In this document: in pieces, positions 60,486 to 62,869 of the stretch
How positions within the stretch are numbered: position 1 is the stretch's first letter
Layout: the number at the start of each line of letters is the position of its first letter
Assembly: GCF_030384885.1 (NCBI RefSeq)
Contig: NZ_CP128613.1
DNA from: Escherichia coli
GTDB taxonomy: Bacteria; Pseudomonadota; Gammaproteobacteria; Enterobacterales; Enterobacteriaceae
DNA length: 64,000 nt
Direction: 5' to 3' (one strand)
Position numbers and translations under genes: made by a program
The notes under the pieces: generated by a model
Databases searched by the model: none
Told to the model about the DNA's origin: nothing
Seen by the model: only the letters and a program-made list of their open reading frames with translations

Positions 60486-61292
60486 ATGATCGAAACGCTG
60501 CTTGAAGTGCGTAATTTAAGTAAAACGTTCCGCTACCGGACCGGCTGGTTTCGTCGTCAGACCGTAGAAGCGGTAAAACCCTTGAGCTTTACGCTACGTG
60601 AAGGCCAGACACTGGCGATCATTGGCGAGAATGGTTCTGGTAAATCCACGCTGGCGAAAATGCTGGCGGGAATGATAGAACCGACCAGCGGCGAGTTATT
60701 GATTGACGATCATCCGCTGCATTTTGGCGATTATTCCTTCCGTAGTCAGCGTATTCGCATGATTTTTCAGGATCCTTCGACCTCGTTGAATCCCCGTCAA
60801 CGTATCTCGCAGATTCTTGATTTTCCACTGCGCTTGAACACCGATCTGGAACCTGAACAGCGTCGGAAACAGATTATTGAAACAATGCGGATGGTTGGGC
60901 TGCTACCGGATCACGTCAGTTACTATCCGCATATGTTGGCACCCGGGCAAAAACAGCGTCTGGGGCTGGCGCGCGCGCTGATATTGCGTCCAAAAGTGAT
61001 TATTGCCGATGAAGCCCTCGCCTCACTGGATATGTCGATGCGTTCGCAGTTGATTAATCTGATGCTGGAGTTACAGGAAAAACAGGGCATTTCGTATATT
61101 TATGTCACCCAGCATATTGGGATGATGAAGCACATTAGCGACCAGGTACTGGTGATGCATCAGGGCGAGGTTGTCGAGCGAGGTAGTACTGCGGATGTGC
61201 TCGCCTCTCCGCTGCACGACCTCACTAAACGACTGATTGCCGGTCATTTTGGCGAGGCATTGACGGCGGATGCGTGGCGTAAGGACCGTTAA
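60486..61292 (+). CDS. sapF: ABC ATPase SapF
   Basis: 268-aa ORF with Walker A GENGSGKST. Confidence 0.93.
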   Translation: MIETLLEVRNLSKTFRYRTGWFRRQTVEAVKPLSFTLREGQTLAIIGENGSGKSTLAKMLAGMIEPTSGELLIDDHPLHFGDYSFRSQRIRMIFQDPSTSLNPRQRISQILDFPLRLNTDLEPEQRRKQIIETMRMVGLLPDHVSYYPHMLAPGQKQRLGLARALILRPKVIIADEALASLDMSMRSQLINLMLELQEKQGISYIYVTQHIGMMKHISDQVLVMHQGEVVERGSTADVLASPLHDLTKRLIAGHFGEALTADAWRKDR

Positions 61293-61362
61293 TTTTCTGA
61301 ATCAAGCTTGCAGAATATTCACCTCATTCTGACAGGGAAATTCATCCTGTCAGAATGAAGGG

Positions 61363-61809
61363 ATGGATAAAATAAAAGCAAATGCCCGCGATTTAAGACG
61401 CAACCTCACCCCGCAGGAGCGAAAGTTCTGGCGATATCTTCGCAGCCGACGTTTTGCTGATTTCAAATTTCGCCGTCAACATCCGGTGGGGAATTACATT
61501 CTCGATTTTGCCTGTTGCTCTGCACGTTTAGCGGTAGAGCTTGATGGTGGGCAACATGATTCAGCTATCGCGTATGATACCAGGCGCACGCGCTGGCTTG
61601 AGTCCCAGGGCTGGACCGTGCTGCGTTTCTGGAATAACGAGATCGATCATAATGAAGAGGCGGTTCTGGGGGAGATTCTGCAGGAACTGAACCGCCGGTC
61701 ACCCTCACCCCAACCCTCTCCCCAGAGGGGCGAGGGGGCTGTATGTGCCTGTTTGTTGCTGCGCAGGCAAATGAACAAGCGGTGCCGGGGATCATTCTGC
61801 AGGAACTGA
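61363..61809 (+). CDS. ycjD: DUF559 (very-short-patch-repair-like endonuclease fold) protein YcjD. The 3' end runs into a repeat element, so the true stop is uncertain.
   Basis: N-terminus MDKIKANARDLRRNLTPQERKFWRYL followed by a conserved DUF559 core. The ORF is 148 codons here, against 117 aa in K-12 from memory. The last ~35 codons (SPSPQPSPQRGEGAVCAC...) are encoded by the repeat described in the findings. Confidence 0.75.
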   Translation: MDKIKANARDLRRNLTPQERKFWRYLRSRRFADFKFRRQHPVGNYILDFACCSARLAVELDGGQHDSAIAYDTRRTRWLESQGWTVLRFWNNEIDHNEEAVLGEILQELNRRSPSPQPSPQRGEGAVCACLLLRRQMNKRCRGSFCRN

Positions 61810-61929
61810 GCCGCCTGTTACCCTCTCCCTGAAAGGGCATGGGGGCTGTATGTGCCTGTTTGTTGCTGGGGTGACAACGCGCACAATCGGTCCCCTCGCC
61901 CCTCTGGGGAGAGGGTTAGGGTGAGGGGA
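61676..61929. repeat. composite repeat: tandem ~90-bp duplication plus a 38-bp inverted repeat pair
   Basis: IR-L TCACCCTCACCCCAACCCTCTCCCCAGAGGGGCGAGGGG (61700-61738). IR-R CCCCTCGCCCCTCTGGGGAGAGGGTTAGGGTGAGGGGA (61892-61929). Direct repeats GGGGCTGTATGTGCCTGTTTGTTGCTG at 61736 and 61841, and TTCTGCAGGAACTGA(A/G)CCGCC at 61676 and 61795. Confidence 0.8.
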
Positions 61930-62080
61930 AAAGCGCACACCCGTGCCCACATTCCTGCCAACTATAGCCACCCACAGCCAGGTTGATTATAATAACCGTT
62001 TATCTGTTCGTACTGTTTACTAAAACGACGAATCGCCTGATTTTCAGGCACAACAAGCATCAACAATAAGGATTAAAGCT

Positions 62081-62869
62081 ATGGGTTTTCTTTCCGGTAA
62101 GCGCATTCTGGTAACCGGTGTTGCCAGCAAACTGTCCATCGCCTACGGTATCGCTCAGGCGATGCACCGCGAAGGAGCTGAACTGGCATTCACCTACCAG
62201 AACGACAAACTGAAAGGCCGCGTAGAAGAATTTGCCGCTCAATTGGGTTCTGACATCGTTCTGCAGTGCGATGTTGCCGAAGATGCCAGCATCGACACCA
62301 TGTTCGCTGAACTGGGGAAAGTTTGGCCGAAATTTGACGGTTTCGTACACTCTATTGGTTTTGCACCTGGCGATCAGCTGGATGGTGACTATGTTAACGC
62401 CGTTACTCGTGAAGGCTTCAAAATTGCCCACGACATCAGCTCCTACAGCTTCGTTGCAATGGCAAAAGCTTGCCGCTCCATGCTGAATCCGGGCTCTGCC
62501 CTGCTGACCCTTTCCTACCTTGGCGCTGAGCGCGCTATCCCGAACTACAACGTTATGGGTCTGGCAAAAGCGTCTCTGGAAGCGAACGTGCGCTATATGG
62601 CGAACGCGATGGGTCCGGAAGGTGTGCGTGTTAACGCCATCTCTGCTGGTCCGATCCGTACTCTGGCGGCTTCCGGTATCAAAGACTTCCGCAAAATGCT
62701 GGCTCATTGCGAAGCCGTTACCCCGATTCGTCGCACCGTTACCATCGAAGACGTCGGTAACTCCGCAGCGTTCCTGTGCTCCGATCTCTCTGCCGGTATC
62801 TCCGGTGAAGTGGTCCACGTTGACGGCGGTTTCAGCATCGCTGCAATGAACGAACTCGAACTGAAATAA
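62081..62869 (+). CDS. fabI: enoyl-ACP reductase FabI
   Basis: 262-aa SDR starting [28 protein letters not shown]. Confidence 0.97.

What the first reader, a model, noticed from the sequence alone, without database searches (positions are those of the whole stretch)
61676..61929. A composite repeat downstream of ycjD includes a 3'-end tandem duplication and a 38-bp inverted repeat pair that reshapes the ycjD C-terminus
The last ~20 bp of the ycjD core (TTCTGCAGGAACTGA) and a 28-bp motif (GGGGCTGTATGTGCCTGTTTGTTGCTG) each occur twice, about 105 bp apart. Two 38-bp arms (core AACCCTCTCCCCAGAGGGGCGAGGGG, itself an internal palindrome) lie inverted 150 bp apart. The element supplies the extra C-terminal 30 residues (SPSPQPSPQRGEGA...) of YcjD. 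Its architecture resembles a MITE or REP-like mobile repeat.
Basis: seen in the sequence. Interest (0 to 1): 0.5.

Follow-up and report, generated by a model that had tools for sequence, protein, structure and literature searches.

The report
BoxC repeats fused to ycjD's end
The repeat after ycjD is made of BoxC elements, a small GC-rich E. coli repeat first reported in 1992, here duplicated and locally rewritten so that the gene lost its stop codon. Following it up showed that this type of repeat brackets ycjD-type nuclease genes across bacteria, which suggests where BoxC comes from.

Summary
Two direct repeats (spacings 119 and 107 bp) and a 52-nt inverted pair with a perfect 26-nt core are present, with 0 chance matches expected.

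The inverted arms are BoxC elements, also called PIT or TMECO. The downstream arm is identical to TMECO no. 9 of K-12 (Holder 2015). BoxC is multi-copy, with 23 copies in K-12.

The first BoxC overlaps the 3' end of ycjD, a DUF559 Vsr-like nuclease gene. A 107-119-bp tandem copy of the gene's 3' end plus BoxC follows it.

This allele is rare (5 of 5,426 complete E. coli genomes). The 30-residue tail is a lineage-specific accident. Four substitutions within 5 nt, matching the inverted arm exactly, changed the ancestral TGA to CAG. PGAP annotates the gene as a pseudogene in the identical strain.

So the element is already known and "REP-like" is fair. "MITE" is not supported.

New lead: DUF559 genes in many phyla carry BoxC-like three-block motifs.
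- 72 of 80 loci have one at the 3' end and 65 of 80 have one upstream; 43 of 80 have both in inverted orientation.
- Only 3 of 106 neighbouring ORFs have one at either end.
- E. coli lineages with ycjD carry 12-30 TMECOs; lineages without it carry 0-11.

This suggests a RAYT/REP-like partnership. I found no paper reporting it.

The parts
61363..61809 (+). ycjD ORF as it reads in this strain (148 aa). The DUF559 / Vsr-like PD-(D/E)XK nuclease domain covers residues 3-110. Codon 121 (61723-61725) is CAG here and TGA in the closest relatives.
   Evidence: ORF. (Pfam DUF559, E = 1.1e-46). (PDB 3HRL, E = 2e-28). (PGAP annotates a pseudogene, 'missing C-terminus', in the 100% identical strain 2013C-4282). 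(TGA in relatives).
61702..61736 (-). BoxC/TMECO copy 1. It matches the full three-block consensus on the minus strand. Its C-rich strand is the ycjD coding strand and reads PSPQPSP. Its loop normally holds the ycjD stop codon.
   Evidence: regex match CCCTCGCCCCTCTGGGGAGAGGGTTGGGGTGAGGG. (PSPxPSP tail at a fixed register in homologues).
61723..61727 (+). Conversion patch: CAGAG here against TGAAA in relatives that are 99.1% identical. That is 4 substitutions in 5 nt. It makes arm 1 exactly complementary to arm 3 and removes the stop codon.
   Evidence: alignments. (the 26-nt core is now perfect on both strands).
61651..61769 (+). Tandem unit 1 (119 nt): the last 17 or so codons of the DUF559 domain, BoxC copy 1 and the 27-nt motif.
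   Evidence: D1, D2..
61770..61877 (+). Tandem unit 2 (about 108 nt). It holds a decayed copy of the ycjD 3' end (NEQAVPGIILQELSRLLPSP*), a degenerate BoxC with the hairpin only (61820-61846) and no third block, and the second 27-nt motif (61842-61868).
   Evidence: Unit 2 is absent from strain 2017-02-2CC and from GCA_018092745.
61893..61928 (+). BoxC/TMECO copy 3, type A (TTA spacer), inverted relative to copy 1. It is identical to TMECO no. 9 of K-12 MG1655 (1,351,204-1,351,239).
   Evidence: regex match. (Holder 2015, Table 1, no. 9). (K-12 locus).
61702..61927 (.). The whole composite: inverted arms 61702-61753 and 61876-61927. As a single strand, 61690-61940 folds into one long hairpin.
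   Evidence: I1, 52 nt, 87% complementary. (-151.6 kcal/mol, z = -9.5, 0 of 200 shuffles fold as well).
61295..61363 (+). 5' module of the ycjD cassette. It contains the imperfect palindrome TTCTGAATCAAGCTTGCAGAAT (61295-61316) and an 18-bp hairpin (61319-61363) that covers the ribosome-binding site and start codon.
   Evidence: I3. (fold, -29 kcal/mol). (paired changes in the K-12-type allele). (module conserved in enteric cassettes that sit at other loci).

Best explanation
The composite is the 3' module of the ycjD cassette and is built from BoxC elements (also called PIT or TMECO), a known dispersed repeat of enterobacteria. A BoxC is a 9-bp C/G hairpin plus a third 9-mer block.

Layout:
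- BoxC copy 1 lies with its C-rich strand in the ycjD reading frame. The gene ends ...PSPQPSP and its TGA stop normally sits in the hairpin loop.
- A 107-119-bp tandem duplicate of 'gene 3' end plus BoxC' follows.
- A canonical type-A BoxC in inverted orientation comes last.

How the present form arose (inferred from comparing alleles): recombination between the repeats.
- Unequal exchange or slippage between the direct repeats adds or removes the 107-bp unit.
- A short templated conversion copied the loop of the inverted arm, or of another identical BoxC, into copy 1. This changed TGA to CAG and let translation run 28 codons into repeat DNA. The tail is most likely a neutral or mildly damaging by-product.

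Why BoxC sits there (association shown, mechanism inferred): BoxC-type three-block motifs are a conserved flank of DUF559 nuclease genes across bacteria. YcjD is therefore probably the protein that recognises, nicks or maintains BoxC, much as RAYT transposases relate to REP sequences.
For: Identity as BoxC:
- Both arms match the TMECO consensus, and arm 3 equals K-12 TMECO no. 9.
- The family is multi-copy.
- Holder et al. cite the 1992 envM sequence paper for the discovery of BoxC.

Recombination history:
- The closest alleles (99.1% identical) have CCCTGAAAGGG with TGA and a 120-aa product.
- The window differs from one of them at 5 positions in 583 bp, and 4 of the 5 fall within 5 nt and match the inverted arm.
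- All four combinations of patch present/absent and one/two units exist among close relatives.
- K-12 and 042 alleles share the unit1-unit2-inverted-BoxC layout.

DUF559-BoxC link:
- 82 of the 120 closest homologues carry PSPxPSP. Of the 79 with the exact motif, 75 start it exactly 25 residues after the FWN motif, and 63 of those end there.
- In 80 loci retrieved with the domain core only, 72 have the C-rich hairpin -5 to +109 nt from the domain end (median about +17).
- 65 of the 80 have a hairpin upstream.
- 43 have both, with the third blocks facing the gene.
- Control ORFs in the same loci: 3 of 106 at either end.
- In many loci the motif lies after the stop codon, so the constraint is on DNA, not protein.
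- In a metagenome scan with the strict motif, 4 of 120 loci hold a DUF559 gene. All 4 genes lie within 50 nt of a motif in the predicted geometry.
- Solo hairpin arms equal the gene-linked arm of the same locus in 27 of 49 cases, against 18.6% for other loci.
- TMECO counts per strain: 13-30 in phylogroups A/B1/C, 12-15 in the ycjD-positive group D strains 042 and UMN026, and 0-11 in ycjD-negative B2/E/F.
Against: - In E. coli, ycjD is single-copy and at one locus in 3,377 genomes, so the gene is not currently moving.
- None of K-12's other 22 TMECOs has a ycjD remnant beside it.
- Strains without ycjD still keep some BoxCs.
- The strain-count correlation is confounded by phylogeny.
- I did not verify ycjD presence directly for UMN026. 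It rests on the ST69 statement in PMC12817139 plus my recollection of the strain's sequence type.
- PD-(D/E)XK nucleases have no known strand-transfer chemistry. No activity of any DUF559 protein on such DNA has been shown.
- The one characterised DUF559 protein, Caulobacter VsrA, is interpreted as a T:G mismatch repair nuclease.
- The conversion donor cannot be identified uniquely. K-12 TMECOs 9, 16, 19 and 22 share the same loop.
- Enteric cassettes lack the upstream BoxC seen in other phyla.
Confidence: 0.8

Rival explanations
1. BoxC is a passive structure-forming repeat (hairpin or intrastrand triplex) that stalls replication and causes local instability. Its position at the end of ycjD is incidental, or it serves only as an mRNA 3' hairpin. 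YcjD has nothing to do with it.
For: - Holder 2015 showed triplex formation in vitro and more sequence variation around TMECOs, and found no mobility gene nearby.
- The region folds very stably as a single strand.
- The unit gain/loss and the patch seen here need only ordinary recombination.
Against: - It does not explain why 72 of 80 DUF559 genes from many phyla have the motif at a fixed distance from the domain end.
- It does not explain why 65 of 80 have one upstream in mirror orientation, against 3 of 106 control ORFs.
- All 4 DUF559 genes in a motif-selected metagenome sample abut a motif.
- PIT elements showed no terminator or promoter activity (Hoyne and Maher 2002, as summarised). No T-run follows the hairpin here.
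Confidence: 0.3
2. The composite is a MITE: a non-autonomous transposon with terminal inverted repeats that inserted behind ycjD and is mobilised by a classical transposase.
For: - The inverted arms are 52 nt and 87% complementary, and the element is about 226 bp.
- K-12 has five ORF-less BoxC pairs about 100 bp long with homologous spacers.
Against: - There is no direct repeat at the outer ends. The left flank is ...CCGGTCA, and AAAAGCG... follows the right arm.
- There is no transposase in the locus.
- The interior is a duplicate of the host gene's own 3' end, not foreign DNA.
- The left arm is the ancestral gene end in all homologues.
- Holder et al. found no transposase or integrase remnants at any TMECO.
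Confidence: 0.05
3. The 28-30-residue extension is an adaptive new C-terminal module of YcjD.
For: - The ORF is open for 148 codons.
- A related stop-loss form of 134 aa is annotated as a protein and recorded 37 times.
Against: - PGAP flags the gene as a pseudogene in the identical genome.
- The tail differs with unit number (...AVCACLLLG* against ...LLLRRQMNKRCRGSFCRN*).
- It is translated repeat DNA with no counterpart in the family. Most homologues stop at PSPxPSP.
- Closest relatives keep the TGA.
Confidence: 0.05

Closest known systems
BoxC / PIT element / TMECO. Sources: Bergler 1992; Bachellier 1999; Hoyne and Maher 2000 and 2002; Holder 2015 (PMC4666352).
   Same: - The consensus CCCTCNCCC-N3-6-GGGNGAGGG-N3-GGGNGAGGG is matched by both arms.
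- Arm 3 is identical to K-12 TMECO no. 9.
- The element is multi-copy and GC-rich, sometimes occurs in inverted pairs, and is associated with local sequence instability.
   Different: - Copy 1 is inside a coding sequence, whereas Holder et al. describe TMECOs as always intergenic.
- Its spacer is TTG/CAA rather than type A (TTA) or type B (CCG).
- The pair here has the third blocks facing outward and is separated by a duplicated gene end.
- The literature I could search does not connect BoxC with ycjD/DUF559.
REP/REPIN sequences and their RAYT (TnpA-REP) genes
   Same: - A usually single-copy nuclease-type gene is bracketed by inverted copies of a short palindromic repeat that is also scattered through the genome as singlets and inverted doublets.
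- Repeat sequence varies by lineage together with the gene-linked copy.
   Different: - The protein is a Vsr-like PD-(D/E)XK nuclease, not an HUH Y1 transposase.
- The repeat has three blocks.
- The REP consensus is absent.
- No activity has been demonstrated.
MITEs
   Same: Small size, terminal inverted repeats, no coding capacity of their own. The K-12 BoxC pairs fit this description.
   Different: No target-site duplications, no cognate transposase, and the interior here is host-gene sequence.
Vsr very-short-patch repair endonuclease and Caulobacter VsrA (DUF559; PMC12907096)
   Same: Same fold family. YcjD profiles detect Vsr (PMC1189080). All residues invariant in the A3 alignment of ten family members are present in the window protein.
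   Different: ycjD is not linked to a cytosine methyltransferase gene here. The conserved flanking repeats are not a feature described for vsr.

Membership tests
BoxC / TMECO | Match to the consensus CCCTCNCCC N3-6 GGGNGAGGG N3 GGGNGAGGG | tested here: met
   61893-61927 (+) and 61702-61736 (-) match. These are the only two matches in the 64-kb window. The middle copy (61820-61846) has the hairpin only and does not match.
BoxC / TMECO | Multi-copy and dispersed in the genome | tested here: met
   a median of 4 places per genome by megablast, which needs 28-nt exact words; all 23 K-12 copies were fetched and matched; 0-30 copies per strain.
BoxC / TMECO | Intergenic location | tested here: not met
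   Copy 1 overlaps the ycjD coding sequence. Copy 3 is intergenic. In K-12 the gene-linked copy lacks the third block because of a 12-nt gap, so it was not counted by Holder et al.
BoxC / TMECO | Inverted pairs combine a type A (TTA) with a type B (CCG) spacer | tested here: inconclusive
   Copy 3 is type A. Copy 1 has TTG. Gene-linked copies in other enterics read CGG on the coding strand (PSP-R-PSP), which is type B.
MITE | Target-site duplication flanking the terminal inverted repeats | tested here: not met
   the bases outside the arms (GCCGGTCA before the left arm, AAAAGCGC after the right arm) share no direct repeat.
MITE | A cognate transposase, or the same unit inserted elsewhere | tested here: not met
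   the full unit occurs only at the sapF-fabI locus. Holder et al. found no transposase remnants at any TMECO.
REP / BIME | REP consensus and an associated RAYT gene | tested here: not met
   The sequence lacks the REP consensus, which I recalled from memory. No RAYT-like ORF is present. Rfam returned nothing relevant.
DUF559 (PF04480), for YcjD | Full-length profile match and conserved residues | tested here: met
   E = 1.1e-46, profile positions 2-109 of 109; invariant D48, E59, D61, H65 and RFWN(88-91) are present; 3HRL, E = 2e-28.
Intrinsic terminator | GC-rich hairpin followed by a T-run | tested here: not met
   no terminator-like site on the + strand in 61200-62100.
RAYT/REP-like nuclease-repeat partnership (works-like claim) | The gene is bracketed by inverted copies of the genome's dispersed repeat | tested here: met
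   43 of 80 loci have both flanks in mirror orientation; controls 3 of 106; locus L141 has strict TMECOs on both sides of the gene. Enteric cassettes, including this window, have only the 3' copy.
RAYT/REP-like nuclease-repeat partnership (works-like claim) | The protein binds or cleaves the repeat | not testable with these tools
   This needs biochemistry. No published assay was found.

The most novel reading that the evidence does not exclude
DUF559 (YcjD-type, Vsr-like) nuclease genes and BoxC-type three-block 'triplex' repeats form a previously unrecognised gene-repeat partnership that spans many bacterial phyla. It would be analogous to RAYT-REP.

Under this reading:
- The full unit is [hairpin + G-block]-ORF-[C-block + hairpin].
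- ORF-less BoxC pairs and single copies are its non-autonomous derivatives.
- ycjD is the E. coli master gene, and its loss (replacement by eefRABCD) leads to decay of BoxC copy number.

If true, this would explain the origin and spread of BoxC/PIT/TM elements. Holder et al. left that question open in 2015.
Probability: 0.45. Interest if true: 0.8.

Novelty: already known. Interest (0 to 1): 0.5.

Why it matters
In itself the finding is an already described repeat (BoxC, at the locus whose 1992 sequence paper is cited for its discovery) in a rare, rearranged allele. It gives a clear small example of how such repeats reshape a gene end: stop-codon loss by a 4-nt templated patch, and gain or loss of a 107-bp unit.

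It matters more for what it points to. BoxC/PIT/TM elements have been studied since the 1990s for triplex formation and genome instability without any known origin, partner protein or means of spread. The near-universal bracketing of DUF559 nuclease genes by these motifs gives a concrete candidate protein, YcjD, which is non-essential and sits in the best-studied bacterium. The 10-fold difference in BoxC number between E. coli lineages with and without ycjD points the same way. Together they make the question directly testable by biochemistry and by comparing sister lineages.

Tried and rejected
- **Rfam scan of 61000-62400.** It returned only a chance miRNA hit, so the region is not a curated RNA family.
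- **Terminator and promoter scan.** No intrinsic terminator follows ycjD. The only good promoter-like site is the fabI promoter region at 61965-61993.
- **Are solo BoxCs decayed DUF559 genes?** I fetched all 23 K-12 TMECOs and compared the 120 nt upstream of each with the ycjD 3' end, and translated them. Local scores were 7-12, which is noise, and there were no remnants. Rejected.
- **Is ycjD mobile within E. coli?** It is single-copy at one locus in 3,377 genomes. The few 'plasmid' hits are chromosome-sized records. Rejected for E. coli.
- **Do enteric DUF559 genes sit at the loci of K-12's ORF-less BoxC pairs?** The loci found were sbp-yfeX, hemW/dctM-yggN and rsmJ-pitA. None coincides with a K-12 pair locus. 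No support from this test.
- **Is the palindrome at 61295-61316 a LexA box?** The spacing is CTG-N11-CAG rather than N10. I did not pursue it.
- **Literature searches.** Searches for DUF559, ycjD, BoxC, intrastrand triplex, PIT elements and Vsr with REP found no paper linking DUF559 with BoxC. The library lacks most subscription-journal papers, so prior notice cannot be excluded.
Full report
**1. What is in the sequence**

The window between 60.5 and 62.9 kb is E. coli sapF - ycjD - fabI.

ycjD (61363-61809, + strand) encodes a DUF559 protein. The Pfam match has E = 1.1e-46 over the whole profile. The closest solved structure is 3HRL, an 'endonuclease-like protein'. DUF559 belongs to the Vsr-like PD-(D/E)XK nucleases (PMC1189080).

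- Direct repeats at 61651-61710 / 61770-61829 (82% identical) and 61713-61770 / 61820-61877 (83%).
- Inverted arms at 61702-61753 / 61876-61927 (52 nt, 87% complementary).
- The 15-mer at 61676 and 61795.
- The 27-mer at 61735 and 61842.
- The 26-nt core at 61712 (+) and 61892 (-).

None of these is expected by chance; shuffles gave 0 matches. The quoted spacing of about 105 bp is in fact 119 and 107 bp, and the '28-bp' motif is 27 nt. As a single strand, 61690-61940 folds into one long hairpin (-151.6 kcal/mol, z = -9.5).

**2. What the arms are**

Both arms match the published consensus of the E. coli intrastrand-triplex motif TMECO, CCCTCNCCC-N3-6-GGGNGAGGG-N3-GGGNGAGGG (consensus from Holder et al. 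2015, PMC4666352). They are the only two matches in the 64-kb window.

The downstream arm (61893-61928) is letter-for-letter TMECO no. 9 of K-12 MG1655 at 1,351,204-1,351,239, which lies between ycjD and fabI.

The same element is called BoxC in the older literature and PIT element in the work of Hoyne and Maher. Holder et al. cite Bergler et al. 1992, 'Sequences of the envM gene...', for its discovery. envM is the old name of fabI (my knowledge), so that paper covers this locus.

BoxC is multi-copy. K-12 has 23 strict matches, five of them in inverted pairs, or 22-32 copies by other definitions.

**3. How this particular allele arose**

Only 5 of 5,426 complete E. coli genomes carry this ycjD allele:
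- 2013C-4282, 100% identical.
- Three strains at 99.1%.
- 2017-02-2CC, at 98.3% identity, which lacks exactly one 107-bp unit.

All other ycjD-positive strains have alleles about 82-88% identical, but with the same layout: gene end + BoxC, a decayed duplicate of gene end + BoxC, and an inverted BoxC.

In the 99.1% relatives, and in the K-12, 042 and ET201 alleles, the gene ends CCC-TGA with the stop codon in the BoxC loop (CCCTGAAAGGG). That gives proteins of 120, 117 or 121 aa. The window has CCCCAGAGGGG instead. This is four substitutions within five bases (61723-61727), out of only five differences in 583 bp from the MFDS1022581 allele. The new sequence is the exact reverse complement of the loop of the inverted arm.

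I infer a short templated conversion rather than independent mutations. The template could be the partner arm, or another BoxC with the same loop (K-12 nos. 9, 16, 19 and 22 share it). The conversion removes the stop, so translation runs on into repeat DNA for 28 more codons. NCBI's pipeline annotates the gene as a pseudogene in the identical genome.

A fourth form also exists, with the CAG patch but one unit (134 aa). All four combinations of patch state and unit number are therefore found among close relatives. That implies repeated recombination between the direct repeats.

The duplicated 27-nt motif is special to this allele; K-12-type alleles carry it once, in unit 2. Its first part is homologous to the 3' extension of ordinary BoxC copies (GACCGNTCGTGC).

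**4.

'REP-like dispersed repeat' is fair.

'MITE' is not supported:
- No target-site duplication at the outer ends.
- No transposase.
- The interior is a duplicate of the host gene's own end.
- The complete unit occurs only at this locus.

The element did not insert into ycjD. It is the ancestral end of the gene, as section 5 shows.

**5. Where the evidence led: BoxC is a conserved flank of DUF559 genes**

*Protein tails.* Among the 120 best YcjD homologues, 82 carry a PSPxPSP-like tail. Of the 79 with the exact motif, 75 start it exactly 25 residues after the FWN motif, and 63 of those end precisely there. PSPxPSP is the C-rich strand of BoxC read in frame.

*Diverse loci, 3' end.* To avoid circularity I searched one genome per species with an alignment trimmed to the domain core. 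That gave 80 loci, covering:
- Enterobacteriaceae, Neisseria and Xanthomonadaceae.
- Alpha-, beta- and deltaproteobacteria.
- Dehalococcoidia, Terriglobia, Pirellulales, Dadabacteria, Dormiibacterota and Gastranaerophilales.

In 72 of the 80, a C-rich 8-9-bp hairpin (CCCTCYCCC-loop-GGGRGAGGG) lies on the coding strand -5 to +109 nt from the domain end (median about +17). In 57 of these it is preceded by a third C-rich block. In many loci the motif lies after the stop codon, so DNA rather than protein is conserved.

*Upstream copy.* 65 of the 80 loci also have such a hairpin within 250 nt upstream, 49 with the G-rich third block next to the gene. 43 have both, arranged as [hairpin + G-block]-ORF-[C-block + hairpin].

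*Controls.* Of 106 other ORFs in the same loci, 3 have such a hairpin at the 3' end and 3 at the 5' end.

*K-12 pairs.* The bracketing geometry equals that of four of K-12's five ORF-less BoxC pairs, which have the third blocks facing inward and a 16-28-nt spacer. The fifth pair (nos. 17 + 18) has the blocks outward. The inward-facing pairs look like the same unit without the ORF.

*Reverse test.* I scanned metagenome contigs with the strict TMECO pattern, which gave 120 loci and 144 matches. Four loci contain a DUF559 gene. All four genes lie within 50 nt of a motif in the predicted orientation, one with strict motifs on both sides. The ratio of about one gene to 25-35 motifs resembles K-12 (1 gene, 23 motifs).

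*Co-variation.* Solo hairpins more than 400 nt from the gene share the exact arm of the gene-linked copy in 27 of 49 cases, against 18.6% for gene-linked arms of other loci.

**6. E. coli lineages**

ycjD is present in 3,377 of 5,426 genomes, always single-copy. In phylogroups B2, D, E and F it is replaced by the eefRABCD efflux operon, except in ST69 and ST182 (PMC12817139; O157 checked; strain 042 has ycjD).

Holder's supplementary tables give TMECO counts per strain:

| Group | ycjD | Strains (count) | Range |
|---|---|---|---|
| A/B1/C | present | K-12 23, IAI1 29, W 30, UMNK88 13 | 13-30 |
| D | present | 042 12-13, UMN026 15 | 12-15 |
| E | absent | O157 and O55 10-11 | 10-11 |
| F | absent | IAI39 6, CE10 6, SMS-3-5 7 | 6-7 |
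| B2 | absent | CFT073 2, UTI89 1, strain 536 none listed | 0-2 |

So BoxC is abundant where ycjD is present and scarce where it is absent. Two caveats apply. The correlation is confounded by shared ancestry. For UMN026, ycjD presence rests on the ST69 statement plus my memory that UMN026 is ST69.

**7. Mobility of the gene**

Within Enterobacteriaceae, related DUF559 genes (60-70% identical) sit at four or more different places:
- sapF-fabI in E. coli.
- sbp-yfeX in Klebsiella and Kluyvera.
- hemW or dctM to yggN in Enterobacter, Leclercia, Franconibacter, Phytobacter and Scandinavium.
- rsmJ-pitA in one Enterobacter.

In each of those examined at the DNA level, the gene-linked BoxC is at the stop codon and an inverted type-A BoxC lies just downstream. 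Several also share a 5' module (TTCTGAA-N7-TTCCAGAA...CATTCTGACA) and a hairpin over the start codon. So the gene and its repeats travel as a cassette, but rarely. Each site is shared by several genera, and the gene is fixed in place within E. coli.

**8. Interpretation and confidence**

*Shown:*
- The repeats exist.
- They are BoxC.
- The allele is rare and rearranged.
- The stop codon was lost through a 4-nt patch.
- Unit number varies.
- DUF559 genes are flanked by BoxC-type motifs far more often than chance.
- BoxC number tracks ycjD presence in E. coli.

*Inferred:*
- The patch is a gene conversion.
- YcjD acts on BoxC.
- BoxC pairs and singles derive from, or depend on, the DUF559 unit.

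The closest functional analogue is the RAYT-REP/REPIN system. It is not a member of that family: the protein fold differs and the REP consensus is absent.

*Points against a simple 'mobilising enzyme' model:*
- PD-(D/E)XK nucleases do not catalyse strand transfer, so spread would have to go through host repair or recombination.
- No solo BoxC in K-12 has a gene remnant beside it.
- ycjD-less strains still keep some copies.
- The only studied DUF559 protein is interpreted as a mismatch-repair nuclease.

I found no paper linking DUF559 and BoxC in the searchable library. Holder et al. state that they found no mobility function near TMECOs and that the origin of the motifs is unanswered. The library is incomplete, so an earlier report cannot be excluded.

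**9. Verdict**

The finding is real. Its main component is already known: BoxC/TMECO no. 9 plus a gene-linked BoxC. The C-terminal 'reshaping' is a lineage-specific stop-loss accident.

The wider DUF559-BoxC association it exposes is a strong, testable lead on a question that has been open for decades, which is why I score it at mid level.

Noticed in passing
window 61319-61363: An 18-bp hairpin (CCTCATTCTGACAGG...CCTGTCAGAATGAAGG, about -29 kcal/mol with its flanks) covers the ribosome-binding site and start codon of ycjD. The K-12-type allele keeps it through paired changes (CAGG/CCTG becomes CAAGA/TCTTG). Leclercia cassettes have a hairpin of different sequence at the same position. It may be a translational brake on the nuclease.
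   Followed up: partly
window 61295-61316: The imperfect palindrome TTCTGAATCAAGCTTGCAGAAT starts right after the sapF stop codon. It is conserved at the 5' edge of DUF559 cassettes in Klebsiella, Leclercia and other Enterobacteriaceae (and, in degenerate form, Buttiauxella), even though those cassettes lie at other loci. It could be an operator or the cassette boundary. The CTG-N11-CAG spacing does not fit a LexA box.
   Followed up: partly
window 60486-62869: Identity to K-12 varies by segment: sapF 95.3%, ycjD core 86.7%, repeat region about 80%, fabI promoter 98.3%, fabI 98.1%. The ycjD cassette is a divergent allele found in 5 of 5,426 genomes. This suggests replacement by recombination, with a tract that may reach into sapF.
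   Followed up: partly
L003 (E. coli O157 Al Ain) and PMC12817139: In about 38% of complete E. coli genomes the whole ycjD-BoxC cassette is absent. In the O157 genome I checked, and per PMC12817139, a TetR regulator plus an RND efflux operon (eefRABCD) lies in its place in the opposite orientation. Homology to the window resumes only at CAACTATAGCC, about 120 bp before fabI.
   Followed up: partly
Holder 2015 supplementary Tables S1 and S7: TMECO counts differ more than 10-fold between E. coli lineages (B2 0-2, F 6-7, E 10-11, D 12-15, A/B1/C 13-30) and track ycjD presence. Other genera also vary widely (K. pneumoniae 8-12 against K. variicola 27-38; Pantoea At-9b 59; P. fluorescens Pf0-1 80). 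I did not check those against DUF559 content.
   Followed up: partly
L088, L092, L094, L095 (K-12 BoxC pairs): Three of K-12's inverted BoxC pairs share a homologous 27-28-nt spacer (AACAGSCMRGCAYYGGYGCGAAHAWTWA), so they are copies of one element of about 100 bp rather than chance neighbours. Ordinary BoxC copies also share flanks beyond the 36-nt motif (...CTGTTC/TTTTC before it, GACCGNTCGTGC after it).
   Followed up: partly
L021, L023, L052, L073, L076: A minority of DUF559 loci have the flanking motifs in the opposite polarity, with the third blocks pointing away from the gene. This is the same polarity as the ycjD 3' pair in this window. I have no explanation for it.
   Followed up: no
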